Below, one piece after another: positions 11,005 through 43,463 of a DNA stretch of 64,000 bases (the first letter of the stretch is position 1; every line of letters begins with the position of its first letter). Position numbers and translations under genes: made by a program. The notes beneath the pieces were generated by a model. It made no database searches, was not told where the DNA came from, and saw only the letters and a list, made by a program, of their open reading frames with translations. This DNA comes from Patescibacteria group bacterium. GTDB taxonomy: Bacteria; Patescibacteriota; Microgenomatia; UBA1400; PJMF01. The stretch spans positions 37,857 through 101,856 of the forward strand of contig JAZQJV010000018.1 of the NCBI GenBank assembly GCA_045541795.1. Reading direction: 5' to 3'.

Positions 11005-11577
11005 TTAATTTCCTTGTTTGATCAGTCCCATTGTCGCCACCGGCCAGTAAGAGAAAAAAGCCCGGCCGATAATACTCGACTCCTCGATCGGTCCCCAGTA
11101 ACGTGAATCAGAAGACTGCTGACGGTTATCACCACAGACAAAATACTGCCCCTCGCCCAAGACAACTTCTTTGTCGCCCGCGGTATAATCCGCCGCTCCC
11201 GTGATCACGCTGTCAGACAAATAGTTACTTTCATCTAACACTTCACCATTGACGTAGACCTTACCATTAGCGATTTTTACCGTCTCACCAGGTAAACCGA
11301 TGATCCGCTTGATGTAATCACAATTGTCACCGATACATGCATTTAAAGGCGCCTTGAAAACAATCACGTCGCCCCGCTGCGGCTGCCCAAACCGGTAACT
11401 GATTTTTTCCGTCAGTAAATACTCGCCGGTACGCAAATTGGGATCCATACTGTGGCCGTTGACCTGATGCGGCTGCACGATAAAAATATAGATGACAAAA
11501 AAAATCGCCAGGGAAGTGACTACTGTCTCTACAAAATCCAGCACCCAGTCAATAATTTTTTGCTTTGTGATCGTCAT
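11005..11577 (-). CDS. lepB: Signal peptidase I (S26 family)
   Basis: An N-terminal TM is followed by the GHSMDPNL catalytic-Ser box, KRIIGLPGE and GDNRQQSSDSRYWG. Confidence 0.85.
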   Translation of the reverse strand: MTITKQKIIDWVLDFVETVVTSLAIFFVIYIFIVQPHQVNGHSMDPNLRTGEYLLTEKISYRFGQPQRGDVIVFKAPLNACIGDNCDYIKRIIGLPGETVKIANGKVYVNGEVLDESNYLSDSVITGAADYTAGDKEVVLGEGQYFVCGDNRQQSSDSRYWGPIEESSIIGRAFFSYWPVATMGLIKQGN

Positions 11578-11595
11578 GGCCTTATTATACCACAG

Positions 11596-25520: not shown

Positions 25521-25650
25521 TATTAGCACTCTATCATTTAGACTGCTAACGTTTTTAACTACTTTAAAATTTACCTATGTATCAATATAAATTCATTTAT
25601 TGTACACAATAAATACTCAATTTTCTTTTTCATTTTTACCGTATAACTGG
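25521..25650 (-). repeat. Full-length copy (reverse orientation) of the modular intergenic repeat, with the hairpin module C, the palindrome module B and the ttaccgtataa module A. It overlaps the stop codon of the A2M-like gene.
   Basis: The reverse complement of 25521-25622 is about 85% identical to 3853-3950. Positions 25611-25650 match 14730-14770. Confidence 0.7.
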
Positions 25651-28600
25651 TTGGGTCTCGCCGCCGCTGACTTCATCACCATCTGCCGCCACTTTTTGCG
25701 CCGTCTCTACCACTTCTTCTTGTCTCGTCATCACTTCTGGCGTAATGACGGGAGGTGGGGTCGGCGGTCGGCGGTTTTTGCGGATGATCGTGACTATGCC
25801 GGCTATGATTGCTACAGTTGCTAAAGCGAGTAAGATCCACGCATTAGTGCTGCCCTCGGGCTTGCTGATTAGTGTTTCTTGCTCGTCAGCGTAAGTCTCA
25901 TCAGCCTTGCTGATCCATGCCGGCTGCTTATCTAAGATTTGGATTTTATCCGTCATGGCTGTCTGCGCTACAAAGTCAGCATCATACATCGAACCGACAC
26001 GGGTCGGCGGTGCGCTTACTGTTTGTGCCAAATTTGTTAATACCGCTTGGTAAGAGACAATCGTCATTCCTCGTTTGACTTCATACAAAGTACCATTAAA
26101 GCCAGTGAAATTAAACGTCCGATTGGCCCAGACATTGTTTTCCCGCAAAAGTGGGCGCAAATTGCTGGGCAGATAATCATCAATATTGACGAAATATTGT
26201 GTCTGGCCTTTATTCTCAATCCCCAAGTATACCGTCACGATGTCGCCGGCTTTGATGTCCTCGCCAGTTTTTTCGGCGCGCACGTAGGCCTTGTAAATAT
26301 TGAGCTTCTTGTTTTCCCGCGGGGAATTGGTGCTGGTACGCCACTGATCGACACTGACGGTCACGTATATGGGTGCATCAGCGCCGTCATCTGTACGGCG
26401 TACGGTAATGGTATTGACGTCACCTGGTAAGTCAGCTAAGTTGACCGTAAAATGCTTTTCCCGGTCTATGCCAGAATTAAAATCAGCCATACCGATGGTC
26501 TGCTCGCCAGCCAAAATCACATAACTGCCGCCAACATCTTGGGGCGCAGCATACTCATACCATGCCATCAATGCCTCAATTGCTGTCGCGCTTTCGTAAG
26601 TGTTGGCCCAGCCAGCCTCGCGCCGATACCCCAAAAGCTGTGTCACGAGTTTTTCCAACTGTTGTTGATAGCCGCCATATTCTTGGTGATAAGCCAATAC
26701 TGCCTGTATCGTCAGTGCTAGATCTGCCGGTACGCTCCGGTAACGTTGGGCCTCACTACTGGTCAGATCGATGTTGTCATTTTCCATCGCTCGCAGTAAA
26801 CGGGTGACATTATGACTGGCTGCTTCTCGGTCGCCAGCTAAAAGATTAGCTTGCACCATCCACGAAAGCAAATCAACGTCAGTGGTGGCGGCGGCATTCA
26901 TCTGATCGTAATACTGTAAAGCGGCATCAAAGCTGGAAACTGATTTTCCTTCCATGGTCACTGTCTGACTGCGCTCACCCAGCAAAAGCAAACCGTACAC
27001 ACTGGAAATTAAATCAGCACTATTCAAACGTTCGCCAGCCGCTAAGTATTTACCCTGTAAAGTGTCAGCCAAAAACTGTGCGGCTCGAGCTTGCACCGGA
27101 GTTTGGGCTTGCGGCAAATGCTTCACCACGTATGTCGTCCGGAAAGCGCTAGCATCACCGCGAGTTTTATTCCAAAAACCCCAGCCGCCGCTGCTTTGCT
27201 GCAAAGAAGTCAGATTTTTCACGCCCGTCTCAATTAATTGATCAAGATCCACGCCGTCAAAATCTTCACTACTAAAGTAGTCACTATCGTGCGCTGCCAG
27301 GGCCGGCACTAATCTGGAGGTCACTTGCTCCACACAACCGCGCGGATACTCCAGCAAATCCTTCATCGCACTGCGCAGTGATGAGAGTAAATCCGCCGCT
27401 ACGCTGATGCTTACGCTCGAGCGCTCTCGCTCACTGTCGGGAGCAACTCCCAGATCAAATTCGCCCGCATGCAGTGAAAACTGACTCGTTTTCTGACTGT
27501 AGCCAAAAGGAAGAATCTGTAAGGTTTTAACCAGCACATCACCACTGCCTCCACTGCTGACATTACGCACGCCCGTAGTGATTTTGGTCGCTGGCATTTC
27601 ACTGATTGCTTTTACCGGTACGGTGACGTTTTTGGTTTCGCCAGCTGTGAGCGTAAGGCTGGAGGGGAAAGTTTCCAGAGTCTGCAAACCTTCTCCCGCT
27701 TCCCAGACAGGTACAAAGCTTTGCGTGACACCAGTATAATTCGTCACACTAAAACCCAAATGTAAAATGTCGCCCACGCGCATTCTTTCGGGCGCAATTA
27801 CCCGGGAGACTACGTCTTTTTGCGTGACTACTTCCTGTTTGCTTTCGCCTACTACTGTTTCCGGCGTCACGGCCACGCCCGTGAGTGCCCAGGTAGTCAA
27901 GTTATCCGGCATCACAAATTCCGTGCTGGCTTCACCATTGCTGTCGGTAATGATTTTTGGATTCCAGTAAGCGGTATCTTTGAAAACATCGCGCAGTTCA
28001 CTACCATCGCCACCACCGCCCTCGGCGCCAAAAAGCATAATGGATTGTAGTGAGTGGTAAGTACGGATCCAGTGATGACGCTCACTCCAGTAACGGCTAA
28101 AAATATCGCCCCGGTGTGAAGCCGCCAGCTCAAGCAAGGCTTTGTCAATCGTCCACAAAGTGACGCTGGCGCTTAGTGGTTTGCCTGTGTAGGCATTGGT
28201 AGTTTTTATTTTTACTTTTACGCTGTCACCAGGATTGTAAATTTCTTTGTCTGTAGTAATTTCTACGTTAATCTTTTTCAGGTCTCGAGCCATGTCCACG
28301 CCGCTCGTGCTGGAGATGTAATTATTACGGTCAAAAAGTGATACGTCATGGAAAGTGTTTGGCTGATCGGTATCTACTGCCTCGTAAGCGACTTGATCAG
28401 GGCTTTGGTGGAAAGTGCCGATAGAGTAACGATCTAGCCGCTGTCGGCCAAAGTCAGCAAAATACTGCCGACCGACTAAATTCTTGCCTACTTCGTAGCT
28501 GACATTGATTTTTTCACTCGGCACGTGCTTTTTGTCTTTGTCAATCACGATTTTGAGGGCAGAATCAGGGTCACTGCTGACGCCATTGCTACTTCCATCC

Positions 28601-30402
28601 AAGCCATAATCACTCCCACTATTGTCGTCACAATAAAACCAATCATAAGCAGCTTGAAAGTGTCCGTTCTCATCATAAACTTTGTAAATCACGCTACGAT
28701 TATCACAAGTACTGGGGCGATAACCAAAACTAAAATTCCCGTCAGCATCAGTACGGCTTTCGAGTGTAGTCAATTCCAAAAACTGCTCATAATGATCTGG
28801 GTCGCGCAAAATAATGGTGGCCGTCATCCGTCTGTTGGCAGCACTGACTTCATCACGGATACTGTTGATCTTTCCCGTCATTTCCATGCCGCTGCCCACT
28901 TGGAAGCTTTTGTTGGTGTCGCTTGTTTTAATTTCAAAAGGCGTGTAATTTATTTTTACCACTTTGAAGTCTTCGGCAGGCTCACTCAGGCCGTCACTAT
29001 AGCGGACAAATAAGGTGTAATAAAGCTGCGTTGTTCCTGACTCTTCACGTTTGTCCTCTTGCTTAGGCAGTCCAGTTTTAATTTCCCAGTCGAGCTCACC
29101 ATTTTCGCCCAGTGTCAGCGCGTGCCACTGGCAATCTTCGTTGTCATCATTGCCGCCCCAGGTATATCCTTGTTTGAAACAATAACTCACGCTTGAGCCA
29201 TTCATATCATGACCGGCAAAACTTGTCCCGCGCACGTGGGCGCTCACATTTTCTCCGGTCACTAGTGTATCTTCGTCTACATCCAAAATCAACTCATATT
29301 CCGGTTTGACGTACTCTCTCACTTCAAACCAAGTACTATTGCTGTACCGGTGCTCGCCACCCACAGACAAATAATAATCCGTCAGATCTGCATTCTCTCC
29401 GATCTTCCAGCTGCCATCAATGCCGCCGTATTCATCCGGGGTGTAAGTTTGTGCCCAATCAGTCACTTCACCATTTTTGCCAGAGTGAGTAATTTTCACG
29501 CTCACAGGTTCACGAGGCACACTGTAACGCGCGTCATCTTCTCGGCGCAGGAAAGCTTTAAAATATACCGTATCGCCGCGCTGGTAAAGCGGTTTATCGG
29601 TAAAAACATAATTATTTGCATCAGCGTGGTAAATCGAGTAGCTACCACCCGCAGTCCATAAACTACCAAGTTCCACGTCCTGGATCGCTAAAGGGATAAA
29701 ATCCCAACCGTTTGCCGTCACCACTACTAAAGCATCAGCATTTTCGGAGTAAGGGACAGTTGCGATCCCGTTGCTCGGGAAAGAAATTTCGTCGAGCGCG
29801 TGTACGCCGTCTTGTAAATTATACACGAACACTTGTCCGCTGATATTACCCGAGCCGCTAGCCAAATCCTGCGACCATAATGTAAGGTTTTCGTCACCAT
29901 TTTTGGCCATGGTAGCAAAACTTGAGCGCGTCACTAAAGCAAATTGCTCCTGGTCAGCGTCTACTGCCCGTATCCACCAAGCACCCGTGGCGGCTGGTAC
30001 GTCTAATTCATAATTACGGCCAGCCAACTGGTCCAAAGTCACACTGGTCACAGGCAATGCCAAGTCAAAATCAAAGTTTGACCACTGCAACTGACGGCGT
30101 TTGAAATAACTTTGCACTTCCTCATCTGGACTACTATATATCAAAGCATCAAGCAAGCCGTCCAAATCCAAAGGATAAAGACTGATCACTGCTTTAGGAT
30201 CGCTAAAATCTTGCGGATTTAGCTTGATTTTGTCATCAAGTCCCAGTGGTACAAATACAGAACGTGCCCCATAGTCTTCGGTAAAATTAAAACGTATCCG
30301 GCGCTGTTGCTGGTAAGCGGCACCAATTTCCTTGCCCTCGCCAAAAAACAATAAACTCAAACTCACCAGTATAGTCAACAAAAAACGTCCACACCATTTC
30401 AT
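25636..30402 (-). CDS. Alpha-2-macroglobulin family protein (bacterial A2M/ECAM-like, thioester-containing), 1,589 aa from Met at 30402, with an N-terminal signal peptide and a C-terminal TM anchor plus a Pro-rich cytoplasmic tail
   Basis: LEYPRGCVEQVTSRLVPALA matches the bacterial A2M thioester region (compare the E. coli YPYGCLEQTTS motif). DTAYWNPKIITDSNGEASTEFVMPDNLTTWALTGVAV matches the A2M domain. The start is chosen at MKWCGRFLLTILVSLSLLFF (signal peptide), downstream of the ORF-track Met at 30771. The C-terminus AWILLALATVAIIAGIVTII-RKNRRPPTPPP is a TM followed by a basic stop-transfer. Confidence 0.8.
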   Translation of the reverse strand: MKWCGRFLLTILVSLSLLFFGEGKEIGAAYQQQRRIRFNFTEDYGARSVFVPLGLDDKIKLNPQDFSDPKAVISLYPLDLDGLLDALIYSSPDEEVQSYFKRRQLQWSNFDFDLALPVTSVTLDQLAGRNYELDVPAATGAWWIRAVDADQEQFALVTRSSFATMAKNGDENLTLWSQDLASGSGNISGQVFVYNLQDGVHALDEISFPSNGIATVPYSENADALVVVTANGWDFIPLAIQDVELGSLWTAGGSYSIYHADANNYVFTDKPLYQRGDTVYFKAFLRREDDARYSVPREPVSVKITHSGKNGEVTDWAQTYTPDEYGGIDGSWKIGENADLTDYYLSVGGEHRYSNSTWFEVREYVKPEYELILDVDEDTLVTGENVSAHVRGTSFAGHDMNGSSVSYCFKQGYTWGGNDDNEDCQWHALTLGENGELDWEIKTGLPKQEDKREESGTTQLYYTLFVRYSDGLSEPAEDFKVVKINYTPFEIKTSDTNKSFQVGSGMEMTGKINSIRDEVSAANRRMTATIILRDPDHYEQFLELTTLESRTDADGNFSFGYRPSTCDNRSVIYKVYDENGHFQAAYDWFYCDDNSGSDYGLDGSSNGVSSDPDSALKIVIDKDKKHVPSEKINVSYEVGKNLVGRQYFADFGRQRLDRYSIGTFHQSPDQVAYEAVDTDQPNTFHDVSLFDRNNYISSTSGVDMARDLKKINVEITTDKEIYNPGDSVKVKIKTTNAYTGKPLSASVTLWTIDKALLELAASHRGDIFSRYWSERHHWIRTYHSLQSIMLFGAEGGGGDGSELRDVFKDTAYWNPKIITDSNGEASTEFVMPDNLTTWALTGVAVTPETVVGESKQEVVTQKDVVSRVIAPERMRVGDILHLGFSVTNYTGVTQSFVPVWEAGEGLQTLETFPSSLTLTAGETKNVTVPVKAISEMPATKITTGVRNVSSGGSGDVLVKTLQILPFGYSQKTSQFSLHAGEFDLGVAPDSERERSSVSISVAADLLSSLRSAMKDLLEYPRGCVEQVTSRLVPALAAHDSDYFSSEDFDGVDLDQLIETGVKNLTSLQQSSGGWGFWNKTRGDASAFRTTYVVKHLPQAQTPVQARAAQFLADTLQGKYLAAGERLNSADLISSVYGLLLLGERSQTVTMEGKSVSSFDAALQYYDQMNAAATTDVDLLSWMVQANLLAGDREAASHNVTRLLRAMENDNIDLTSSEAQRYRSVPADLALTIQAVLAYHQEYGGYQQQLEKLVTQLLGYRREAGWANTYESATAIEALMAWYEYAAPQDVGGSYVILAGEQTIGMADFNSGIDREKHFTVNLADLPGDVNTITVRRTDDGADAPIYVTVSVDQWRTSTNSPRENKKLNIYKAYVRAEKTGEDIKAGDIVTVYLGIENKGQTQYFVNIDDYLPSNLRPLLRENNVWANRTFNFTGFNGTLYEVKRGMTIVSYQAVLTNLAQTVSAPPTRVGSMYDADFVAQTAMTDKIQILDKQPAWISKADETYADEQETLISKPEGSTNAWILLALATVAIIAGIVTIIRKNRRPPTPPPVITPEVMTRQEEVVETAQKVAADGDEVSGGETQPVIR

Positions 30403-30466
30403 ATCTACTATCATAACACGCACCCTCATACTTGTCAAATCTGTGCACATGTAGTAAAATGAATTT

Positions 30467-31150
30467 ATGCCATTTGCAAGCACCAAACAATCAGCTGCGC
30501 CAGACCCTAATTCATCGGCCGACATCGCCGAAAATAGTGTCACTTGGGAAGAAGATGTGAACGTCGATCCTGACGAAGTTATTTTGGCGGCGATCATGGA
30601 AAACCTCGAGTCGGATATATGCGCTCGCTTGCAGGAGGATTTTGGCGACGAACTAGCGGCCACTTTTGAACAGGCACTTGCTGGCAACGGACAATTTGTA
30701 CGCATGTTGCTGCAGTCAGGCGTCCCGGTGGTGACGATGTTTGAGTGTCTGCGCGGGCGCCAGACGGCCATTAAAGATCAAGCGACTCTTGATGCTCTTT
30801 TGGATCACGGCTTGAGTTTGGAGCTTTTGCTGGGTGAGGCAGTGCCGTTTTATTTGCTAGTCTCTAGTGCCAATCGTGATGAGAGACTTTTTGACGCCTT
30901 GCTTGCCCACAAAAACATTAATCTGGACGATTTACTCCTGGCCAAAGCCGATCCGACCAAACTTGCCCGTCATCTTGATCGCTTTTCGCCAGTCAACGTG
31001 AGACTGCTACTACAATACGGCATCCCGCTACCCACGCTGGAAGCATACATTGATCAGTGTGACGCTGTCAATGAGCAACGCGGCTATGCGCCGCACTATT
31101 TCCGCCGGCGGGTGCAGGATATTTTGGATAGCGCGCACACAGGCGTGTGA
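30467..31150 (+). CDS. Hypothetical cytoplasmic protein with degenerate ankyrin-like LLxxGxxL repeats
   Basis: LLQSGVPV / LLDHGLSL / LLAHKNINL / LLLQYGIPL periodicity is visible. It is leaderless behind a TAAAAT -10. Confidence 0.35.
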   Translation: MPFASTKQSAAPDPNSSADIAENSVTWEEDVNVDPDEVILAAIMENLESDICARLQEDFGDELAATFEQALAGNGQFVRMLLQSGVPVVTMFECLRGRQTAIKDQATLDALLDHGLSLELLLGEAVPFYLLVSSANRDERLFDALLAHKNINLDDLLLAKADPTKLARHLDRFSPVNVRLLLQYGIPLPTLEAYIDQCDAVNEQRGYAPHYFRRRVQDILDSAHTGV

Positions 31151-31435: not shown

Positions 31436-32563
31436 ATGCGAAAACTTCGTGTTTTTAGCCAGGCTGTGTGTGTGTGTGTGGCTCTCGCCACTCTTTGTGC
31501 TAAGTCGGTAAGTGCAAATTATTGCTTGTGTCAGTATCCCGCCAGCGGGACACCGACAGAACTAGACTGCAAAGATGTAGGAAGCACGACCTCATGTAGT
31601 GATCAGTGTAGCTATTGGTCAGTTTACACATGGGGAACACATAGCGGACCATATAATACTTCAACCGAATGTGCAGCAAAGAAGCTTGAAGCTCAAAGGA
31701 AAACTGGTGCTGATACGGGCAATCAAACATGCCTGATTGTGGTTCAAGACAACACTACTAAGGGAGTTAGACATACGTGTGAAAAACTAGGCGGCGCCAG
31801 TTCTTGCAATGATGTAGCAGCGGCGGCAACACTTAATAGCAACGAAAGTATTAGGCAGAAGACGCTGTTTGATGATCCCTCAGCCTGTGAAAATGCATTT
31901 AGTACTCTTACAACACAAGTAGCCTGCAAGAAAACTAAAAACAGCGAGTGTATAGATATTACCGTCTACACTGATAGTTGGGATACAATAGGGTATTTTG
32001 CTTGTTTTAATGGCGAAAACCGTATGTCGTATTGTCAGGGTCCACAGTGCTGTATCTATCAAAACGATAGTGGACGCCAAACATGTCAATGCGGTACTGA
32101 TAATCTTACTGACAGCGGAAGTTGCAAGAGCACCCACGGTAGTGCTGGTTCATTGGTAAGTGGTCCGTATCACCGTACCGCTTGCGCAGATAAGCTAGAC
32201 TCCGAGCCCCTCACCGTCGACCTCCTCCCCAAATACGAAAAACTCTCCCAGACCTCACTTGACGAAATCAACCCTCTTACCCAAAGCAAAGTCCTCAGCG
32301 AAGCCAACACTCGTACTCCCGGCGCTCTCGTCTCTCGCCTTGTCCGCAATATTGTCTTCCCGATTGCTGGCTTACTTCTCTTTCTCATGATTACCTGGTC
32401 TGGCTTTCAAATCGTCCAAGGCGGAATGATGGGTGATGATAATGCTGTCAGCTCAGGTAAAGGACGTCTTACCGCCACTATTGTCGGCTTCCTACTGCTT
32501 TTTGGCAGTTACTGGCTCTGGTCGCTGGTAGAAGCGGCGCTGGGACTGGGGACAACGAGCTAG
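31436..32563 (+). CDS. Secreted cysteine-rich protein (about 28 Cys) with a conserved C-terminal two-TM hairpin anchor (VirB2/TrbC-type pilin-like), paralog A
   Basis: Signal peptide MRKLRVFSQAVCVCVALATLCAKSVSA. A Cys-rich ectodomain ends with the QCGTDNLTDSGSC motif shared with paralog B. The C-terminal 123 aa are identical to paralog B: TM1 IVFPIAGLLLFLMITWSGFQIV, loop QGGMMGDDNAVSSGKGR, TM2 LTATIVGFLLLFGSYWLWSLV. Confidence 0.75.
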   Translation: MRKLRVFSQAVCVCVALATLCAKSVSANYCLCQYPASGTPTELDCKDVGSTTSCSDQCSYWSVYTWGTHSGPYNTSTECAAKKLEAQRKTGADTGNQTCLIVVQDNTTKGVRHTCEKLGGASSCNDVAAAATLNSNESIRQKTLFDDPSACENAFSTLTTQVACKKTKNSECIDITVYTDSWDTIGYFACFNGENRMSYCQGPQCCIYQNDSGRQTCQCGTDNLTDSGSCKSTHGSAGSLVSGPYHRTACADKLDSEPLTVDLLPKYEKLSQTSLDEINPLTQSKVLSEANTRTPGALVSRLVRNIVFPIAGLLLFLMITWSGFQIVQGGMMGDDNAVSSGKGRLTATIVGFLLLFGSYWLWSLVEAALGLGTTS

Positions 32564-32684: not shown

Positions 32685-34097
32685 ATGACGAAGAAAATTG
32701 GCTTCATTGTTATACTTGCAGCAACAAACATAATATTAGTTACTAATGCGGTTTTTGCGGACGAGAGTTGGTGCTTATTTGTTCCTACGCCAGGAACTGA
32801 TTCTGCTGGTAAGACGTATGCGGGAAGGTTTGATTGTTCACCACCAGATGTTTCCGGCGCCTGTAATCCAGCACTCGCAGGATATGGTAGCTGGGAAGCC
32901 GCTGGTTCGGGATACAAAAGCTTTGATGAATGTGCGAATGCTTATGACAATCTAAGCGGTTACTGCTATACAAGTGGTAGTGACGAATGTGCTAGTGCTA
33001 AGCGCAACACTTGCAGTTCCTTTTTTTATAAAGACGCAAATACGTGTGGGAATGAACATCTAGATTTCAACGCTTACTGCTATGACCCGGCTACAAACAA
33101 ATGCAATAAAATAAGTGGAGGGGTATCCAAAAGCTCTACTAGCAGTAAATGTGTCGGCGAATACACATATAAGGGGGGCACGGCAGAGTCTAATAAGAAA
33201 TCTTGCGAGGACTATGCTGCAACAATGGACGAACAGAAAAAAGCGGGTGATAAATTTTGTCTCTGGTACACTCATGGAGAGAATAATAATGAAAAGGCGG
33301 GAGATACGGATTTTAGGTCATTCAGATGTGAACCGATACTAATTGAGACCGAAACAACATGTGATGATCGTTTCCCACCAACTAATAGTGAAAAATGGAT
33401 ACTCTATCGCAAACAACCATATTCTACTCAAGAAGAATGTAAAAACGCTCTGTACCAAGAAAAAGTCTGGTGTTTCCATCCAAACGACGGCCGCTGCCAT
33501 AATGAAACATACGTCCAGTGTAGGGAACAAAACGGACAACAGTATAAGGATAAGACAACGTGTGAAGATAAACACCAAAAATGCTGTAAATATGAAGATA
33601 AGAATGGACACTCAACTTGCCAGTGTGGCTCTGATAATTTGGACGCAAAGGGGCAATGCTTAGCTTCATCTGATAAATACGGTTCTTTAAAGGGTAGCTA
33701 TGACGGTAGAACTGCTTGTTCTGATTCACTCGACTCTGAACCTCTCACCGTCGACCTCCTCCCCAAATACGAAAAACTCTCCCAAACCTCACTTGACGAA
33801 ATCAACCCTCTTACCCAAAGCAAAGTCCTCAGCGAAGCCAACACTCGCACTCCCGGCGCTCTCGTCTCTCGCCTTGTCCGCAATATTGTCTTCCCGATTG
33901 CCGGTCTTTTACTCTTTCTCATGATTACCTGGTCTGGCTTTCAAATCGTCCAAGGCGGAATGATGGGTGATGATAATGCTGTCAGCTCAGGTAAAGGACG
34001 TCTTACCGCCACCATCGTCGGCTTCCTACTGCTTTTTGGCAGTTACTGGCTCTGGTCGCTGGTAGAAGCGGCACTAGGACTGGGGACGACGAGCTAA
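32685..34097 (+). CDS. Secreted cysteine-rich protein (about 40 Cys) with the same C-terminal two-TM hairpin anchor, paralog B
   Basis: An N-terminal signal/TM (IGFIVILAATNIILVTNAVFA) is followed by a divergent Cys-rich ectodomain and the shared QCGSDNLDAKGQC motif. The last ~123 aa are identical to paralog A. The nt identity is about 97% over 33719-34097 vs 32191-32563, and all differences are synonymous. Confidence 0.75.
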   Translation: MTKKIGFIVILAATNIILVTNAVFADESWCLFVPTPGTDSAGKTYAGRFDCSPPDVSGACNPALAGYGSWEAAGSGYKSFDECANAYDNLSGYCYTSGSDECASAKRNTCSSFFYKDANTCGNEHLDFNAYCYDPATNKCNKISGGVSKSSTSSKCVGEYTYKGGTAESNKKSCEDYAATMDEQKKAGDKFCLWYTHGENNNEKAGDTDFRSFRCEPILIETETTCDDRFPPTNSEKWILYRKQPYSTQEECKNALYQEKVWCFHPNDGRCHNETYVQCREQNGQQYKDKTTCEDKHQKCCKYEDKNGHSTCQCGSDNLDAKGQCLASSDKYGSLKGSYDGRTACSDSLDSEPLTVDLLPKYEKLSQTSLDEINPLTQSKVLSEANTRTPGALVSRLVRNIVFPIAGLLLFLMITWSGFQIVQGGMMGDDNAVSSGKGRLTATIVGFLLLFGSYWLWSLVEAALGLGTTS

Positions 34098-34141
34098 TTT
34101 CCGTTGGACGCACGCCGGATTGTGGTGTATAATAAGCGCTA

Positions 34142-35203
34142 ATGTCAGAAAAAATTAACCAGTACGTACTGCAGGAAATTAATGAACTCAAAAGCCGTAT
34201 CCAAGAGGCCAAATTGCCGGAAGCTGTCCAAAAAAAAGCCGAACGTGACATCATTAGTCTGGAACGCTCGATTGACTTCGGCAATTACGACGAAAAATAC
34301 GAAATGGTGACGCACTACATCGACTGGCTGGTGCGCATCCCCTGGAATAAATTCACCAAAGACCGTCTCGACATCAATGAGACCCGCCGTATTTTTGACT
34401 CACACCACTACGGTATGATGGAAGTAAAAAACCGCTTCCTTGAATACGTCTCCATCCTCAAGCTCCAAAACCAAAATAACCAAACTCAAGCCTACCGCGC
34501 GCCGATTTTACTACTCGTTGGGCTGGTGGGTACTGGTAAGACTACTTTTGCTTATTCATTGGCTGAAGCCCTTGGTCGTTACATTGTCCGCATTCCTTTT
34601 GGTGGTATGGGTTCGGCCAGAGAACTGCGCGGCTGGTCGCGGCTACATCTGGAGGCCGAACCAGGCAAGATTATCAAAGGACTTTGCGAGGCAGGTGTCC
34701 GCAATCCGATTTTCCTGCTTGATGAAATTGACCGGGTGGCGGAAAGCGCGCTTATGGACATTATGGGCGTACTGGTGGAGTTGCTTGATCCGGCGCAAAA
34801 CCAAGCGTTTACTGATACTTATATCGACTACCCGGTAGATCTTTCTCAGGCGATCTTTTTGGCCACTGCCAACAATACCACCAAAATTGCCACTGCCGTC
34901 ATGGATCGTATGGAAAAAATTTCTATGCCTTCTTACACTGATTACGAAAAAGAAATGATCGCCAAAAATTACATCTTGCCGCGGCTCTACTCCAATGCTG
35001 GTATCCGTCCCGAGCAAATCCATATCGATGACTCACTCTGGAGTAAAATCATCCGTCCACTCGGCTATGATATGGGCATCCGCACACTCGAGCGGACTCT
35101 AGAAAACATGGTTCGCAAAGCCGTACGCATTATGGTGGAACAAGGCTATCAGGAAATCTGGGTGACGCCAGAAAATTCCAAGATCTTCTTGCCCCAATAC
35201 TAA
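34142..35203 (+). CDS. Lon-like AAA+ ATPase module without the N-terminal substrate domain and without the S16 protease domain
   Basis: YIDWLVRIPWNKFTKDRLDINETRRIFDSHHYGMMEVKNRFLEYV and ILLLVGLVGTGKTTFAYSLAEALGRYIVRIPFGGMGSARELRGWSRLHLEAEPGKIIKGLCEAGVRNPIFLLDEIDRV align closely with E. coli Lon residues ~270-420 (Walker A, Walker B and sensor regions). The ORF stops at 35203 and recJ follows with its own promoter. Confidence 0.75.
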   Translation: MSEKINQYVLQEINELKSRIQEAKLPEAVQKKAERDIISLERSIDFGNYDEKYEMVTHYIDWLVRIPWNKFTKDRLDINETRRIFDSHHYGMMEVKNRFLEYVSILKLQNQNNQTQAYRAPILLLVGLVGTGKTTFAYSLAEALGRYIVRIPFGGMGSARELRGWSRLHLEAEPGKIIKGLCEAGVRNPIFLLDEIDRVAESALMDIMGVLVELLDPAQNQAFTDTYIDYPVDLSQAIFLATANNTTKIATAVMDRMEKISMPSYTDYEKEMIAKNYILPRLYSNAGIRPEQIHIDDSLWSKIIRPLGYDMGIRTLERTLENMVRKAVRIMVEQGYQEIWVTPENSKIFLPQY

Positions 35204-35244: not shown

Positions 35245-36912
35245 ATGGCAAAGTACACGTGGCAGTTTTTACATGAAGATCAGGCAGATACTATCCAAGA
35301 ATTTACGGCGGCCATCATAAATAATCGCCATTGGGACCAAGAAACCCTTCAGGCGGAGTTTGCTTGGGAGCGTCTCACGCCTAAGGCTCTCAATATTGAT
35401 AAAGGGCAGCTGGAGGCAGCTATCGCCCGTCTGCAGGAGGCGGCCAGCAAAAAACAAAAAGTGGTCATTTTTGGTGACTATGATGTCGACGGTAATTGCG
35501 CCACGGCCATCATGTGGCAAAATTTGCGTGAAATTGGTATTGACGCGGCTCCTTTCATCCCACACCGTATCCGTCATGGTTATGGCATGTCTGTAGGCGC
35601 CTTAGAAGAAATCTTCGCCGCCGGCAAGCCAGATTTGATTATCACTGTGGATAATGGCATCACTGCCCGCGCCGCGCTCGATTTTTGCCGGCAGGAAGGC
35701 GTAGACGTCATCGTCACTGATCATCACCAACCAGACCAAGCCGGACCGCTGCCGGTGGTCGCCCTCGTGCACACTATCAGTCTTTGCGGTGCAGGCGTGG
35801 CCTGGTATCTCGGCTGGCAGCTGCACACTGCTTCTCTCGGGGTCAAGCCCGCTCAGAGCAAAGCCTTACCAATGCTTGATTTAGTGGCGCTAGCCACTAT
35901 TGTGGATCAAGTGCCTTTGGTAGGTCTGTGTCGTGCTCTCGTCAAGAAAGGCATTGCTTGTCTGCGTGAGAGCCAGCGCGTCGGTATCATCGCTCTTTGT
36001 GAGCAAGCACGTATCAAACAATCAGCACTGCGCGTGCGCGATATTGGTTTTAGCTTGGGGCCGCGGATAAATGCTATCGGCCGATTGACCAACACTCTGG
36101 AAGCACTCCGTCTTCTTTGCACGTCCAAAAAAACTTATGCTGCTAAACTTGCCCAAAGTCTGGGTGACGTCAACACTTCTCGTCAAGAGCTTACGAGCCA
36201 GATGCTGGAGACGGCTTGCGGCCAGCTGGGGCAAAAGTGCCAGGATAATATTATCATCACCGGCAGCAGTGAGTTTCACGAAGGTATCATTGGTCTGATC
36301 GCTAGTAAATTGGTAGATAAATATGCCCGGCCGGCTATCGTTTTTGCCATCCATGACGGGATCGCCAAAGGCTCAGCGCGTTCGATTGAGGGCTTTGATA
36401 TTATTGCTTTTATCCGCCGCTTCCGCGATCAGCTGCTAGAAGCTGGCGGTCACACTATGGCGGCTGGTTTAAGTATCGCCGCCGATCGCTTCGAAGAAGT
36501 CACTGCCAACATGCGTCAGACTGCCAACCAAGTCATCACCAAGCAACAATTAACCCCAACACTCAAAATTGAAACCCGCGTCAAAATAGAAGCTCTCTTT
36601 CATCCTTTTTTGCCGGCTCTATTGGAAGAATTAGAACCTTTTGGTGCCGGCAATCCGGAGCTGACGATAGCTATAGATGCTCAGGTCCACCGCGTCAGCA
36701 CCATTGGCAAAGACAAAAATCATCTCCGCTTAGATTTCGTCACGAGTAAAGGTCAATATTTCAACGCCTTGCTCTGGAATTATGTAGACTCCGGCCTGAC
36801 GCCACCTTCAAGCGGCGACCGGCTCCAAGTAGCCGGACAGCTGAGTCTCAATGACTACAACGGCCGCGTCAGCCCTCAGCTAATTATCCAAGATTGGCGA
36901 GAGATGGCATAA
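35245..36912 (+). CDS. recJ: Single-stranded-DNA-specific exonuclease RecJ (DHH/DHHA1)
   Basis: VVIFGDYDVDGNCATAIM, ITVDNGI, VIVTDHHQP and the GGH motif are the DHH-family signatures. Confidence 0.85.
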   Translation: MAKYTWQFLHEDQADTIQEFTAAIINNRHWDQETLQAEFAWERLTPKALNIDKGQLEAAIARLQEAASKKQKVVIFGDYDVDGNCATAIMWQNLREIGIDAAPFIPHRIRHGYGMSVGALEEIFAAGKPDLIITVDNGITARAALDFCRQEGVDVIVTDHHQPDQAGPLPVVALVHTISLCGAGVAWYLGWQLHTASLGVKPAQSKALPMLDLVALATIVDQVPLVGLCRALVKKGIACLRESQRVGIIALCEQARIKQSALRVRDIGFSLGPRINAIGRLTNTLEALRLLCTSKKTYAAKLAQSLGDVNTSRQELTSQMLETACGQLGQKCQDNIIITGSSEFHEGIIGLIASKLVDKYARPAIVFAIHDGIAKGSARSIEGFDIIAFIRRFRDQLLEAGGHTMAAGLSIAADRFEEVTANMRQTANQVITKQQLTPTLKIETRVKIEALFHPFLPALLEELEPFGAGNPELTIAIDAQVHRVSTIGKDKNHLRLDFVTSKGQYFNALLWNYVDSGLTPPSSGDRLQVAGQLSLNDYNGRVSPQLIIQDWREMA

Positions 36913-40406: not shown

Positions 40407-43400
40407 ATGTCAAATTTTGCTGCCAAATTTAAAAGTGAACTCGCCAAACTCAACCCTGCCCAAAAACAGGCCGTGGACACGCTGGAAGGCCCGGTGATGG
40501 TTTTTGCCGGCCCAGGCACAGGCAAAACCCAGATCCTCACGCTGCGCATCGCCAATCTCATCAGTCAGGGTCTGGCCGAGCCAGCCCAGATCTTAGCACT
40601 GACTTTCACTACCTCAGCTGCCGCCAATATGCGCACTCGCCTGGGCAGAATGATCGGCACCGCTGGGCTGCAAGTCCCGTTTTTCACTTTTCATGAGTTT
40701 TGCCAGACGGTGATCGGTGACCATCCAGAAGTTTTCCCTTTTGGTGAGCACGCCTTACCTCTGGGAGACTTAGAACGGATCGACATTTTGCAACAGGTGA
40801 TTGACCAAGTAATGCCGCCTAGTCTCCGGCCTACGGGCGCCGCTTACACGTATCTGGAGGCGATTTCGAGTGCGATCCAAAATCTCAAGGCTGAGTACGT
40901 GACACCAGAAAAATACCGCCAGCTTTTGGCGCAGGAAAAAAAACGGGTAGACAGCTTGATTGACGAAGAAATGGCCCGCAAGCGCCCGCGCAAAACTGTG
41001 ATTACTCATTTGAGGGTCACTTTTGCCAAGCAAGAAGAACTGGCGGATTTATACGAGCATTATAACCGCCTGCTGAGTGAGCGTCATCGTTACGATTTTG
41101 CCGATATGATTTTGCAAACAGTAAGCGTTTTCCGCGAGCAACCGGATATTTTAGCTCAGTACCAGGAGAAATTCCAGTATCTGCTCGTGGACGAGTATCA
41201 AGATACCAACAATTCTCAAAATGCTGTGCTTGACGCTTTGGCTAGTTTTTGGGGTGAACAGGCAAATATTTTTGTCGTCGGCGATCCTTATCAGTCTATC
41301 TACCGTTTCCAGGGCGCCAATGTAGAGAACTTTTTGGGCTTTACCAGTCGCTATCCGGCCGCCCGAGTCATCAATCTCCTCACAGGTTACCGTTGTCATG
41401 CTCATACTTACGCGCTCGCACATGCCCTGACCCATGAGATGAGTCCGCTCGAGGTAGACGGGGCAGGGGAGGCCCTAAAAAGTGGCAGTCACTTGTCACC
41501 ACTGCCGGCTTTACTTACCGCTTGTCCTAGTCAACAAGCTGAAATCATCAATATTTTTACCCGCATTCGCTCACTTATTGCTTCCGGCACGCCGCCTGAG
41601 CAAATTGCCATCATTTACCGTAAAAATCGTGAAGCCGACGCGCTCCTAACGGCTGCTGCTCACTATGGTATCGCTTGCGAGATTGAAGGCGGCGCTGACG
41701 TACTCGAAATGGAGACAGTGATCTGGATTTTACAGCTTTGCCGTCTCTGCGCCCATCTGGAGGACAGGCAAACCAGTGATAGCCTGGTCTATCAGCTGCT
41801 GTGGCGTCCATTTTGGCATGCAGACACTCTGGCTGTCGTCAAACTTATCCGCCTGGCTCGGGAAAAAAGATGGGTGCTCTGGGATATTTTGGCCGATCGC
41901 CGCCACCCGGCTTGGTTAGAGCTGGCAGCTGACGGCGTGAGCGAGCAACACTTAGCGGCCCTCGAAAACGTCGGTAATATTCTTAAAGATCTGGCCGCGC
42001 AGGCCGCCAATCTGCCTCCGTCACAATTTATCGCCTTACTGCTGGAAAAAAGCGGCATTTTGGCCTGGGTAAGGACACGCCAGGACTACTTACATCAGTT
42101 GACCGCCATTTTCACCTTTACCCAAGCTGTAGGTGAATGGTGCAGTGCCGATCCATATTTAACTCTAGCCGGAGTATTGACCAATTTTGATCTGATGCGC
42201 CAGCACAACTTACATTTACCACTGCAAGATCTCAACGCTCGTGATGGCGCGATCGCTCTTACCACTGCTCACAAAGCTAAGGGACGAGAATGGGATTATG
42301 TTTTCATTTATGGGCTTAATAAGGGCGTCTGGGATCACGCGCGGGCGGCTTTGAGTGTCAAATTGCCCGCTGGTATTATCACCATGCAGTCGCTTGATGA
42401 TAAAGAAAGTATCCTTGATGAAGAAAAACGGCTTTTTTACGTCGCGCTCACGCGTGCCCGGCGGCAAAACTTTCTCAGCTGGCATGAAAGCGAAATTAGC
42501 GCCGCTCGTACCCGCCAAATGCAGGCTTCTGATCTCGTTTTCTTTCTCCAAAAGCAGGTCACCGCTGGTCTGGTGGAAGAAGCACCGCTACTTTTGGATG
42601 CAGCCGCGCTCACTCGTGAACTTGACGTCTTCCTGGCGCCCGCTCCCGAGCGAGACTGGGGATCGGTAAGTCGTGACTATCTGCAAGGGCACGTCAAAAA
42701 CCTCAAACTGTCGGCTACCATGCTTAATGACTATTTGAGCGACGTCAACGTATTTATCGAGCGACACTTACTCGGTGCTCCAGGAGAGCCGGCCAGCACC
42801 CCGCAGCTTTTTGGCAACAGTTTCCATCGCACTCTGGAGCGAGCATTGCGGCCACAATTGACGGGCGCTGATCGCCTCTCGCTTGACGCGGCCAAAGAAC
42901 TATTTGCTGCTGATTTTGGGCGGGCAATTATCGAAAAGGCCGATTTGCAAGCCTGGACGAGTTTGGGTCTGGACTCACTAGAACTGTATTACAGGCAGCT
43001 GGCCACCTCACCCGTCATGCTGGTGGCCCTAGAGCGTAAATTTGGGGATTTGCCGCCCGTCTACCTAGACGACATCCCGCTTACAGGCAAAATCGACCGT
43101 ATTGATCAGCTGGATGCTGACACTGGTGAGGTCATAGATTATAAAACTGGTCAGCATCTGACTATGGGACAGCTTTTGGGTACTACGGCCAGCTCCAAGC
43201 TTTCCGCCCGCGAGCAAGAACTGCCAGAATGCATTCGCTCGCCATATAAGCGGCAGCTGCTTTTTTACAAACTTCTATGCGAGCGCGACCCTGAGTTTCA
43301 TTTACCAATTGCTCGGGGTGCTTTACATTTTGTCAAATCCGAAAAAGGAAAAATCGACGTCCGCCAATTCACACTTCCTGATGAAGAAGTTGCCGCTCTC

Positions 43401-43463
43401 GCCGACCTCATCCGGCAAGTCTGGAGAGAAATCCAGGAGTTGTCGTTTTGGACGGGGAAATAA
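40407..43463 (+). CDS. UvrD/PcrA/AddA-like superfamily-1 DNA helicase fused to a C-terminal PD-(D/E)xK (RecB-type) nuclease domain
   Basis: Walker A FAGPGTGKTQILT, motif II LLVDEYQDTN, motif VI-like VALTRAR, and the C-terminal GKIDRIDQLDADTGEVIDYKTG nuclease motif are present. Confidence 0.75.
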   Translation: MSNFAAKFKSELAKLNPAQKQAVDTLEGPVMVFAGPGTGKTQILTLRIANLISQGLAEPAQILALTFTTSAAANMRTRLGRMIGTAGLQVPFFTFHEFCQTVIGDHPEVFPFGEHALPLGDLERIDILQQVIDQVMPPSLRPTGAAYTYLEAISSAIQNLKAEYVTPEKYRQLLAQEKKRVDSLIDEEMARKRPRKTVITHLRVTFAKQEELADLYEHYNRLLSERHRYDFADMILQTVSVFREQPDILAQYQEKFQYLLVDEYQDTNNSQNAVLDALASFWGEQANIFVVGDPYQSIYRFQGANVENFLGFTSRYPAARVINLLTGYRCHAHTYALAHALTHEMSPLEVDGAGEALKSGSHLSPLPALLTACPSQQAEIINIFTRIRSLIASGTPPEQIAIIYRKNREADALLTAAAHYGIACEIEGGADVLEMETVIWILQLCRLCAHLEDRQTSDSLVYQLLWRPFWHADTLAVVKLIRLAREKRWVLWDILADRRHPAWLELAADGVSEQHLAALENVGNILKDLAAQAANLPPSQFIALLLEKSGILAWVRTRQDYLHQLTAIFTFTQAVGEWCSADPYLTLAGVLTNFDLMRQHNLHLPLQDLNARDGAIALTTAHKAKGREWDYVFIYGLNKGVWDHARAALSVKLPAGIITMQSLDDKESILDEEKRLFYVALTRARRQNFLSWHESEISAARTRQMQASDLVFFLQKQVTAGLVEEAPLLLDAAALTRELDVFLAPAPERDWGSVSRDYLQGHVKNLKLSATMLNDYLSDVNVFIERHLLGAPGEPASTPQLFGNSFHRTLERALRPQLTGADRLSLDAAKELFAADFGRAIIEKADLQAWTSLGLDSLELYYRQLATSPVMLVALERKFGDLPPVYLDDIPLTGKIDRIDQLDADTGEVIDYKTGQHLTMGQLLGTTASSKLSAREQELPECIRSPYKRQLLFYKLLCERDPEFHLPIARGALHFVKSEKGKIDVRQFTLPDEEVAALADLIRQVWREIQELSFWTGK

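What the first reader, a model, noticed from the sequence alone, without database searches (positions are those of the whole stretch)
34142..35203. Lon-like AAA+ ATPase module encoded without an N-domain or a protease domain
The 353-aa product aligns convincingly with the central AAA+ module of Lon (E. coli residues ~240-600). Conserved blocks include YIDW(M/L)V..PW, DxDHYG..VK.R.LEY, the Walker A GxxGxGKT, the R..GG..E.RGhRRTY-like region and the FLLDEIDK/R Walker B.

The ORF begins only about 90 aa before Walker A and stops right after the helical subdomain. The LON substrate-binding N-domain and the S16 Ser-Lys protease domain are both absent. The next gene, recJ, starts 42 nt later behind its own promoter.

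The gene sits directly downstream of the paired pilin-anchored Cys-rich proteins. It is either a degenerate or split Lon whose other parts are elsewhere, or a stand-alone Lon-derived unfoldase or chaperone.
Basis: partly seen in the sequence, partly recalled or inferred. Interest (0 to 1): 0.6.

Follow-up and report, generated by a model that had tools for sequence, protein, structure and literature searches.

The report
Protease-less Lon ATPase of CPR bacteria
This gene is an intact, strongly conserved copy of only the ATP-burning middle part of the Lon protease, found across the ultra-small Patescibacteria (CPR) bacteria, which has lost both the protein-cutting domain and the residues Lon uses to pull proteins through its pore, so it is very unlikely to be a protease even though some databases call it one.

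Summary
ORF 34142-35203 (+) encodes 353 aa that match only the central part of LonA: the three-helix bundle, the AAA+ alpha/beta domain and the Lon lid (TIGR00763 positions 255-572 of 795, E 7e-94).

It is not a frameshift, split or decaying gene.
- An in-frame stop lies two codons before the ATG, and recJ starts 41 nt after the stop.
- The 120 closest homologues are 315-362 aa (97 are exactly 352 aa) and 67-95% identical.
- By their record titles, relatives are in Amesbacteria, Shapirobacteria, Levybacteria, Roizmanbacteria, Pacebacteria, Moranbacteria, Woesebacteria and Saccharibacteria.
- None of 38 such loci, nor the 64-kb window, has a Lon N-domain or S16 domain in any frame. All 47 ordinary LonA loci have both.

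The family splits from LonA in 200 of 200 bootstraps.

The ATPase residues are invariant or nearly so (167-169 of 169). The two substrate-gripping pore-loop positions are lost. The pore-loop-1 Tyr (46/46 in LonA) is H/N/L/Y/F/Q here, and the pore-loop-2 aromatic is Ala.

My best reading is an oligomeric, ATP-hydrolysing, non-proteolytic Lon derivative that acts as a remodeller or switch rather than a threading unfoldase. Its client is unknown. I found no description of it in the searchable literature. I call it a new variant of a known kind.

The parts
34105..34133 (+). Promoter-like site: TGGACG, 17-nt spacer, TATAAT. The -10 box ends 8 nt before the ATG and there is no Shine-Dalgarno sequence, so the mRNA is probably leaderless.
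   Evidence: 10 of 12 consensus matches; sequence; the same arrangement is seen at many genes in the window. Function was not tested.
34142..35203 (+). Complete gene for the 353-aa protease-less, N-domain-less Lon-type AAA+ ATPase. The stop codon is at 35201-35203. An in-frame TAA at 34133-34135 rules out any N-terminal extension.
34145..34336 (+). N-terminal three-helix bundle (residues 2-65). It corresponds to the C-terminal part of the LonA HI(CC)/NTD-3H region.
   Evidence: AF2 model with helices 2-22, 27-43 and 49-65; alignment to Lon residues from about 247-251 onward; domain naming from PMC6722904.
34508..34921 (+). AAA+ alpha/beta (nucleotide-binding) domain, residues 123-260.
   Evidence: Pfam PF00004, E 1.3e-15.
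34520..34543 (+). Walker A motif GLVGTGKT (residues 127-134).
   Evidence: G127, G132, K133 and T134 are each 169/169 in the family and 46/46 in LonA.
34628..34666 (+). Remodelled pore-loop 1, RGWSRLHLEAEPG (residues 163-175). H169 replaces the invariant LonA Tyr. E173 is a family-specific, nearly invariant acidic residue.
   Evidence: the role of this Tyr in LonA comes from PMC8503904.
34715..34726 (+). Walker B motif LLDE (residues 192-195).
   Evidence: D194 and E195 are 169/169.
34730..34762 (+). Remodelled pore-loop 2, DRVAESALMDI (residues 197-207). A203 stands where LonA has Phe, Tyr, Trp or Met, and the LonA GDP motif is lost.
   Evidence: Trp431 of MtaLonA is described.
34871..34873 (+). 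Sensor-1 Asn (N244).
   Evidence: 169/169 in the family and 46/46 in LonA. The assignment as sensor-1 comes from my knowledge of Lon (E. coli N473).
34907..34909 (+). Trans-acting arginine finger (R256).
   Evidence: 169/169. The assignment comes from my knowledge of Lon (E. coli R484).
34994..35146 (+). Lon-type AAA+ lid (small helical) domain, residues 285-335. It contains the sensor-2 Arg R314 (35081-35083).
   Evidence: Pfam PF22667, E 1.4e-9; R314 is 167/169.
35183..35200 (+). Conserved C-terminal tail IFLPQY (residues 348-353). It aligns with the LonA linker into the protease domain. The family pattern is [FY][LIV]P followed by an aromatic residue or a short extension.

Best explanation
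The gene encodes a member of an old, vertically inherited protein family found across Patescibacteria (CPR). The family descends from LonA and keeps only the three-helix bundle plus the AAA+ module. This is the natural equivalent of the E. coli Lon(235-584) proteolytic fragment.

**Shown**
- The protein is complete.
- It has no N-domain and no S16 protease domain.
- It keeps every nucleotide-binding and hydrolysis residue.
- Constraint has been relaxed specifically at the pore-loop-1 Tyr.
- A small residue replaces the pore-loop-2 aromatic.

**Inferred**
- It assembles into a ring or spiral oligomer and hydrolyses ATP, because the trans-acting Arg finger is invariant.
- It cannot degrade proteins itself.
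- It does not thread polypeptides in the processive, Tyr-paddle way that Lon does.
- It therefore most likely acts as a non-degradative, ATP-driven remodeller or switch on some conserved housekeeping client. It may engage that client through the retained three-helix bundle and a new acidic pore motif, LE[AS]EPG.
- The client is unknown.

One consequence is that database labels such as 'ATP-dependent Lon protease' are wrong for this family.
For: **Domain content:**

**Integrity and conservation**
- The top 120 homologues are 315-362 aa, 97 of them exactly 352 aa, at 67-95% identity.
- 142 of 353 positions are at least 98% conserved among them.

**Distribution:** record titles name many CPR classes.

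**Missing domains:** no LonN or LonC domain in any frame at 38 CPR loci or in the window. All 47 non-CPR LonA loci have both.

**Family limits**
- Longer relatives also end at the lid, with no Lon_C domain.
- The family-versus-LonA split is recovered in 200 of 200 bootstraps.
- Within-family identity averages 0.51, against 0.52 within LonA and 0.38 between the two.

**Active site and pore loops**
- Walker A, Walker B, sensor-1, Arg finger and sensor-2 are present in 167-169 of 169 members.
- The pore-loop-1 Tyr is H46/N32/L27/Y22/F15/Q5, and the pore-loop-2 position is Ala in 125 of 169.
- Only two positions in the whole module are at least 90% conserved in LonA yet below 50% in the family. 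Both lie in pore-loop 1.
- In LonA, Tyr397 and Trp431 contact the substrate and are required for degradation (PMC8503904).

**Structure**
- AF2 model pLDDT 89. Foldseek TM about 0.8 to LonA and LONP1, and 0.80/0.83 to 6N2I.
- The EcLon(235-584) fragment crystallises as an open hexameric spiral (PMC6722904).
Against: - No biochemical data exist. ATPase activity, oligomeric state and client are all inferred.
- About 22% of family members still have Tyr or Phe at the pore-loop-1 position, so some threading ability may remain.
- A protease partner encoded elsewhere in the genome cannot be excluded with these tools.
- In LonA, the protease domain is generally thought to contribute to hexamer stability (my knowledge). 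A stable ring without it is therefore not guaranteed.
Confidence: 0.55

Rival explanations
1. Split Lon. The ATPase works with a separately encoded S16 (Lon_C) protease subunit, or an N-domain protein, located elsewhere in the genome. Together they would rebuild a two-component Lon protease, as ClpX does with ClpP.
For: - The conserved C-terminal tail [FY][LIV]P plus an aromatic residue lies exactly where LonA continues into the protease domain. It could be a docking element.
- ATPase residues are intact.
- Whole genomes could not be searched.
Against: - No LonC or LonN domain in any frame within +-10 kb at 38 loci, or in the 64-kb window.
- Both pore-loop gripping residues needed to feed a protease are lost or unconstrained.
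- In the supplementary tables held for the complete Saccharibacterium S. epibionticum genome, PF05362 appears only in ComM/YifB. That genome seems to lack this family too, and the stored tables may be truncated.
Confidence: 0.12
2. A nucleic-acid-linked ATPase. The protein would act on or with the RNA-decay or DNA-repair machinery, for example by remodelling PNPase or RNase J complexes or nucleoid proteins. This would exploit the known DNA/RNA affinity of the Lon AAA+ module.
For: - Ancestral position directly downstream of rpsO-pnp in 24 loci (median gap 41 nt).
- Upstream of a UDG-family gene in 20 loci (median gap 52 nt; the two ORFs overlap in L001), of RNase J in 28 loci and of FtsK in 20 loci.
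- In the window it is followed by recJ.
- Lon AAA+ modules and lid domains bind DNA (my knowledge). The PDB molecule name for 6n2i is 'DNA-binding ATP-dependent protease La'.
Against: - The block nusA...rpsO-pnp...rnj...ftsK is also loosely conserved in Firmicutes (my knowledge of the B. subtilis gene order). That fits plain inherited synteny.
- The window lineage has lost this neighbourhood.
- The new pore motif is acidic, which is unfavourable for threading nucleic acid.
Confidence: 0.15
3. A classical unfoldase that hands substrates to a different peptidase, such as ClpP, HslV or FtsH, or that acts as a disaggregase by threading.
For: - It belongs to the same AAA+ branch as ClpX and HslU (my knowledge).
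- It has intact ATPase motifs.
- Some members keep Tyr or Phe in pore-loop 1.
Against: - The pore-loop-1 aromatic is unconstrained and pore-loop 2 is Ala.
- No ClpP-docking IGF-like loop was evident; this is by inspection only.
- No peptidase gene is a conserved neighbour.
Confidence: 0.07
4. An artefact or decaying gene: a sequencing or assembly frameshift, or a pseudogene remnant of full-length lon.
For: None beyond the truncated architecture itself.
Against: - An in-frame stop lies two codons before the ATG, and recJ starts 41 nt after the stop.
- An identical protein is found on an independent JGI contig.
- The 120 closest homologues are 315-362 aa, and more distant short relatives also end at the lid.
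- The family is as conserved internally as LonA.
Confidence: 0.01

Closest known systems
LonA protease (endopeptidase La, MEROPS S16, TIGR00763): its central AAA+ module
   Same: - 37-41% identity over the whole 353 aa.
- The same three-helix bundle, alpha/beta domain and Lon-type lid.
- 62 positions are conserved identically in both groups.
- All ATPase motifs are shared.
   Different: - No LON N-domain or long coiled coil, and no S16 Ser-Lys protease domain.
- Pore-loop 1 changes from GHRRTY[VI]GAMPG to GxS[RK]xxx[ED][AS]EPG, with the Tyr position unconstrained.
- Pore-loop 2 loses its aromatic residue and the GDP motif.
- It forms a separate clade (200/200 bootstraps) and scores half the TIGR00763 cut-off.
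E. coli Lon fragment 235-584 (PDB 6N2I), a laboratory limited-proteolysis product
   Same: - Almost the same boundaries: the C-terminal part of HI(CC) plus the AAA+ module.
- Query residues 13-346 match chain residues 11-335.
- Foldseek TMq 0.80 and TMt 0.83.
- The fragment packs as an open helical hexamer in the crystal.
   Different: 6N2I is an artificial piece of a protease and keeps the canonical pore loops. The CPR protein is a natural, independently evolving gene product with remodelled pore loops.
LonC (e.g. Meiothermus taiwanensis LonC)
   Same: A Lon derivative that has given up one of Lon's two coupled activities (PMC3391209 and PMC13069640, listed).
   Different: It is the mirror image. 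LonC keeps the protease and has lost ATPase activity. This family keeps the ATPase site and has lost the protease.
ClpX and HslU (stand-alone unfoldases of the same AAA+ branch) and RuvB
   Same: Single AAA+ module proteins with no fused peptidase. They belong to the HCLR clade (my knowledge).
   Different: - ClpX and HslU keep aromatic pore loops and dock onto separately encoded peptidases.
- RuvB has basic DNA-binding pore residues.
- This family has neither feature.
- No sequence match to them better than a generic AAA hit.

Membership tests
LonA protease (TIGR00763 / MEROPS S16 subfamily A) | N-terminal LON substrate-binding domain (PF02190) | tested here: not met
   - No Pfam hit.
- My own LonN HMM finds nothing in any frame of the window.
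- An in-frame stop two codons before the ATG rules out an extension.
LonA protease (TIGR00763 / MEROPS S16 subfamily A) | AAA+ module with a Lon-type lid | tested here: met
   PF00004 at 1.3e-15 and PF22667 at 1.4e-9. Foldseek TM about 0.8 to LonA structures.
LonA protease (TIGR00763 / MEROPS S16 subfamily A) | C-terminal S16 Ser-Lys protease domain (PF05362) | tested here: not met
   No Pfam hit. The ORF stops after the lid and recJ follows 41 nt later. My own LonC HMM finds nothing in the window or in 37 other CPR loci.
LonA protease (TIGR00763 / MEROPS S16 subfamily A) | Score above the curated equivalog cut-off | tested here: not met
   TIGR00763 scores 316 bits against a cut-off of 608. 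NF008053 scores 240 against 891.
LonA protease (TIGR00763 / MEROPS S16 subfamily A) | Pore-loop-1 Tyr and a hydrophobic or aromatic pore-loop-2 residue that grip the substrate | tested here: not met
   The window protein has H169 and A203. Across the family the Tyr position is H/N/L/Y/F/Q, against Tyr in 46 of 46 LonA sequences.
AAA+ ATPases (classical/HCLR type) | Walker A GxxGxGKT, Walker B hhDE, sensor-1 Asn, Arg finger and sensor-2 Arg | tested here: met
   All are present in the window protein and in 167-169 of 169 family members.
AAA+ ATPases (classical/HCLR type) | ATP hydrolysis and ring or spiral oligomer formation | not testable with these tools
   This is only inferred, from the invariant trans-acting Arg finger and the hexameric packing of the equivalent EcLon fragment.
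LonB / LonC / Lon-like defence proteins (BrxL and similar) | A membrane insertion in the AAA module (LonB), a degenerate ATPase with an S16 domain (LonC), or a match to defence-system models | tested here: not met
   - No S16 domain is present.
- No NCBIfam Lon-family hit other than TIGR00763 and NF008053.
- PADLOC gives only weak generic AAA hits, the best being DolB at 1.9e-7.
CPR protease-less Lon-AAA family (defined here) | About 350 aa ending at the lid; pore-loop motif RGxS[RK]...[ED][AS]EPG; a clade separate from LonA | tested here: met

The most novel reading that the evidence does not exclude
At the root of the CPR/Patescibacteria radiation, Lon proteolysis was given up. The Lon motor was repurposed as a non-degradative, non-threading ATPase with a new acidic pore. 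It would work with the RNA-decay or DNA-maintenance genes it has travelled with (pnp, udg, rnj, ftsK). This would be a new functional class of AAA+ protein, and it would leave most of this huge radiation without a Lon protease.
Probability: 0.12. Interest if true: 0.8.

Novelty: new variant of a known kind. Interest (0 to 1): 0.6.

Why it matters
- **It breaks the definition of Lon.** All Lon subfamilies are described as single chains that combine an ATPase with a protease (PMC9569914, abstract listed). Even minimal Mycoplasma keeps full Lon as one of its two essential ATP-dependent proteases (PMC7737663, abstract). A protease-less Lon motor conserved across a radiation holding a large share of bacterial diversity would be a natural experiment in what the Lon AAA+ module does on its own.
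- **It affects how CPR biology is read.** If so, protein quality control in CPR bacteria differs from textbook bacteria.
- **It affects annotation.** Automated labels such as JGI's 'ATP-dependent Lon protease' probably overstate the proteolytic capacity of these genomes. KEGG or COG Lon assignments may do the same, but that is my inference and was not checked.
- **It gives an experimental handle.** The precise relaxation of the pore-loop Tyr, with a fully preserved ATP site, is a clean, testable structure-function case.

Tried and rejected
- **Frameshift or extension:** rejected by reading the sequence and by a six-frame search with my own LonN and LonC HMMs.
- **Nearby S16 or N-domain gene:** none in the window or at 37 other CPR loci.
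- **Whole-genome check for a distant S16 partner:** not possible.
- **Functional link to the upstream pilin-like genes:** rejected, because the neighbourhood is not conserved.
- **PNPase, RNase J, UDG, FtsK, S15, NusA in the window:** no hits, so the window lineage has rearranged this region.
- **Defence-system membership:** only weak generic AAA hits.
- **Literature:** six searches on Lon plus CPR, Patescibacteria or Saccharibacteria, or on protease-less Lon, found nothing on this family.
- **S. epibionticum Tn-seq tables, searched for an essentiality call:** that genome appears to lack the family. The pnp-hypothetical-rnj-ftsK block is present, and PF05362 appears only in ComM. The stored tables may be truncated.
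- **The listing of cluster members for taxon names of distant relatives:** mostly unnamed. The closest full-length LonA cluster is labelled Clostridiales.
- **Foldseek against afdb50:** the library was unavailable.
- **First NJ tree attempt:** it timed out and was redone with faster code.
Full report
**1. The observation**

The ORF at 34142..35203 (+) encodes 353 aa.

- Pfam finds AAA (residues 123-260, E 1.3e-15) and the Lon-specific lid (residues 285-335, E 1.4e-9). It finds no LON_substr_bdg and no Lon_C domain.
- NCBIfam TIGR00763 'endopeptidase La' matches at E 6.6e-94. It covers only model positions 255-572 of 795 and scores 316 bits, half the 608-bit cut-off.
- The best solved structures are LonA proteins: B. 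subtilis 3m6a at E 6e-72, and E. coli Lon residues 251-575.

The gene boundaries leave no room for missing domains.
- An in-frame TAA lies two codons before the ATG.
- The stop codon is followed 41 nt later by a bona fide recJ with DHH, DHHA1 and RecJ_OB domains.

A promoter-like TGGACG-17-TATAAT ends 8 nt before the ATG and there is no Shine-Dalgarno sequence.

**2. Not an artefact: a large conserved family**

- Searching 5.8 billion proteins, the 120 best hits are 315-362 aa and 67-95% identical. Of these, 97 are exactly 352 aa.
- Sources name them 'AAA family ATPase' (NCBI: Moranbacteria, Woesebacteria, Patescibacteria group) or 'ATP-dependent Lon protease' (JGI).
- Among these homologues plus the query, 142 of 353 positions are at least 98% conserved.
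- An identical protein occurs on an independent JGI contig.
- A scan of GTDB species genomes returned 32 loci of this short type. Their record titles name Amesbacteria, Shapirobacteria, Levybacteria, Roizmanbacteria, Pacebacteria, Saccharibacteria and 'Patescibacteria group'.
- Several MAGs carry other labels that I suspect are wrong. The next-best hits in that scan are ordinary LonA genes of Firmicutes, Actinobacteria and other phyla.

I built HMMs of the LonA N-region, AAA+ module and protease domain from 46 full-length LonA sequences. I then searched six-frame translations of the window and all loci.
- All 47 non-CPR loci carry LonN and LonC in the same ORF as the AAA+ module.
- None of the 38 CPR loci has either domain in any frame within +-10 kb. 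The same holds for the whole 64-kb window.

An exhaustive phmmer search of 1.84 billion cluster representatives places full-length LonA (about 780-830 aa, 37-41% identity) as the nearest outside relatives.
- It also shows more distant short members (351-361 aa, 38-52% identity).
- A few members have unannotated N-terminal extensions. All of these also end at the lid and lack Lon_C and LON-N domains.

In neighbour-joining trees of the AAA+ region, the family separates from LonA in 200 of 200 bootstraps.
- Mean identity within the family is 0.51, essentially the same as among the LonA sequences (0.52).
- Identity between the two groups is 0.38.

The truncated architecture is therefore old, arose once (inferred), and has been under purifying selection ever since.

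**3. Anatomy**

The AlphaFold2 model (pLDDT 89.1, pTM 0.81) shows an N-terminal three-helix bundle (helices 2-22, 27-43, 49-65). A linker, the alpha/beta domain and the helical lid follow.

Foldseek aligns about 340 residues to LonA and LONP1 chains with TM about 0.8. The match to 6N2I is TMq 0.80 and TMt 0.83.
- 6N2I is the E. coli Lon(235-584) limited-proteolysis fragment. It holds the C-terminal part of HI(CC) plus the AAA+ module.
- It packs as an open helical hexamer in the crystal (PMC6722904).
- The CPR protein is in effect a natural version of that fragment.

**4. What is kept and what is lost**

I compared 169 family members with 46 LonA sequences.

Kept:
- Walker A (G127, G132, K133, T134), Walker B (D194, E195), sensor-1 N244 and Arg finger R256 are present in 169 of 169.
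- Sensor-2 R314 is present in 167 of 169.

Lost or changed:
- The LonA pore-loop-1 motif RGHRRTY[VI]GAMPG is replaced by RGxS[RK]Lx[LP][ED][AS]EPG.
- The Tyr position is Tyr in 46 of 46 LonA sequences. In the family it is H46/N32/L27/Y22/F15/Q5, with the remainder scattered.
- A new Glu (E173) is present in 165 of 169.
- The pore-loop-2 position (Trp431 in MtaLonA; Phe, Tyr, Leu or Met in my LonA sample) is Ala in 125 of 169. The adjacent GDP motif is gone.

In MtaLonA, Tyr397 and Trp431 are the residues that contact the translocating substrate. Both are required for degradation (PMC8503904).

A position-by-position comparison sharpens the picture.
- 62 positions are conserved identically in both groups.
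- 15 positions are conserved in both but differ between them.
- Only two positions are at least 90% conserved in LonA yet below 50% in the family. These are the His of RGH and the pore-loop Tyr, both in pore-loop 1.

The remodelled loops are shared by all CPR sub-lineages examined, including the Saccharibacteria-type members. The C-terminus keeps a conserved [FY][LIV]P-aromatic tail (IFLPQY here). It aligns with the LonA linker into the protease domain.

**5. Genomic context**

In the window the gene follows two paralogous Cys-rich proteins.
- Their C-termini are near-identical and give a weak T4SS_pilin-like match.
- The gene precedes recJ, a SpoIID-domain protein and an AddA-like helicase-nuclease.

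This context is not conserved. Across the CPR loci the recurrent order is nusA, a DHH protein, rpsO, pnp, this gene, a UDG-family gene, RNase J, FtsK and an HTH_25 protein.

| Neighbour | Position | Loci | Median gap |
|---|---|---|---|
| PNPase | immediately upstream | 24 | 41 nt |
| UDG-family gene | immediately downstream | 20 | 52 nt |
| RNase J | downstream | 28 | 709 nt |
| FtsK | downstream | 20 | 2893 nt |

- In L001 the ORF overlaps the UDG-family gene.
- None of these neighbours is present in the window.
- A similar pnp...rnj...ftsK order exists in B. subtilis (my knowledge). I therefore read this mainly as inherited synteny of a housekeeping gene, and only weakly as a functional hint.

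**6. Mechanism**

Shown:
- The protein is a complete Lon-type AAA+ module.
- Its ATP site is fully preserved.
- It has no protease domain and no N-domain.
- Constraint has been specifically relaxed at the substrate-gripping pore-loop residues.

Inferred:
- It oligomerises. The Arg finger acts in trans, so its invariance makes sense only in an oligomer, and the equivalent EcLon fragment packs as a hexameric spiral.
- It hydrolyses ATP and does not degrade proteins.
- It does not thread polypeptides the way Lon does.

I therefore favour a non-degradative ATP-driven remodeller or switch acting on an unknown conserved client (confidence 0.55).

| Rival explanation | Confidence |
|---|---|
| Nucleic-acid or RNA-decay-linked ATPase | 0.15 |
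| Split Lon with a distant S16 partner | 0.12 |
| Classical unfoldase feeding another peptidase | 0.07 |
| Artefact or pseudogene | 0.01 |

**7. Comparison with what is known**

- The protein works partly like, and descends from, the LonA AAA+ module.
- It fails four defining LonA features: the N-domain, the S16 domain, the equivalog cut-off and the pore-loop Tyr. It should not be filed as a Lon protease.
- LonC is the mirror case: protease kept, ATPase lost.
- Reviews state that all Lons combine ATPase and protease domains in one chain (PMC9569914).
- Six literature searches found no description of a protease-less Lon in CPR.
- PADLOC gives only generic AAA matches.

**8. Verdict**

'Stand-alone Lon-derived ATPase' holds. 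'Degenerate' and 'nearby split' do not. 'Unfoldase' is doubtful.
- This is a new variant of a known kind. It is present in databases under generic or wrong names and appears to be uncharacterised.
- Interest is 0.6.

Noticed in passing
window, many gene starts, e.g. 5590, 11577(-), 12408(-), 30467, 31436, 32685, 34142, 35245, 36952, 40407, 43508, 50111(-): At least 14 of 46 putative genes have a TAnAAT box, often TGgTATAAT, starting 11-16 nt before the ATG and no Shine-Dalgarno sequence. This suggests widespread leaderless transcripts in this genome. Other genes do have GGAG-type sites.
   Followed up: partly
window 31436-32563 and 32685-34097; repeat 32177-32476 / 33711-34010: - Two adjacent Cys-rich secreted or membrane proteins share a nearly identical C-terminal part of about 125 aa (a 300-nt direct repeat, 94% identity).
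- That shared part gives a weak, sub-threshold T4SS_pilin match, while the N-terminal parts are quite different.
- The independent contig L087, which carries the identical Lon-AAA protein, has only the 470-aa copy.
- The pair may therefore be a variable cassette or an assembly difference.
   Followed up: partly
window 25636-30771 (-): - A giant alpha-2-macroglobulin-like protein with MG2, A2M, bait-region and TED domains and a GCVEQ thioester-type motif, in a CPR-like genome.
- The longest ORF (1711 aa) overlaps the 227-aa ORF at 30467-31150.
- The gene call on L087 is 1588 aa, so the true start is probably further downstream.
   Followed up: no
loci L010-L036, L040, L086 (e.g. L027:7466-9874, L025:13001-14788, L034:5751-8075): A deeply conserved CPR gene order: nusA, DHH, rpsO, pnp, Lon-AAA, UDG, RNase J, FtsK, HTH_25. 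In L086 a toxin-antitoxin pair (HTH_17/PIN) plus DUF2079 and DUF4012 genes are inserted between pnp and the Lon-AAA gene.
   Followed up: partly
L001:10001-11062 and 11034-11765: The Lon-AAA ORF and the downstream UDG-family ORF overlap by 29 nt. This suggests translational coupling in that lineage.
   Followed up: no
L009, L013, L014, L019, L020, L022, L024-L027, L029, L031; P0017, P0089: - Contigs that carry the family bear titles such as 'uncultured Gammaproteobacteria', 'Pseudomonadales', 'Candidatus Methanoperedens' or 'Vitreimonas'.
- Most of these contigs also have the CPR-type synteny.
- These look like taxonomic mislabels or mis-binned contigs. I did not verify this.
   Followed up: no
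window 35245-36912, 40407-43463: DNA-repair genes cluster just downstream of the Lon-AAA gene: recJ and an AddA-like UvrD helicase fused to a PD-(D/E)XK nuclease. A SpoIID-domain protein and an unannotated 406-aa polytopic membrane protein lie between them.
   Followed up: no
window residues 109-118 of the protein (34466-34495): A Gln/Asn-rich loop of about 6-9 residues (QNQNNQTQAY) lies between the last N-terminal helix and strand beta-1. It is variable in the family, absent from B. subtilis Lon, and is the lowest-confidence part of the model.
   Followed up: no
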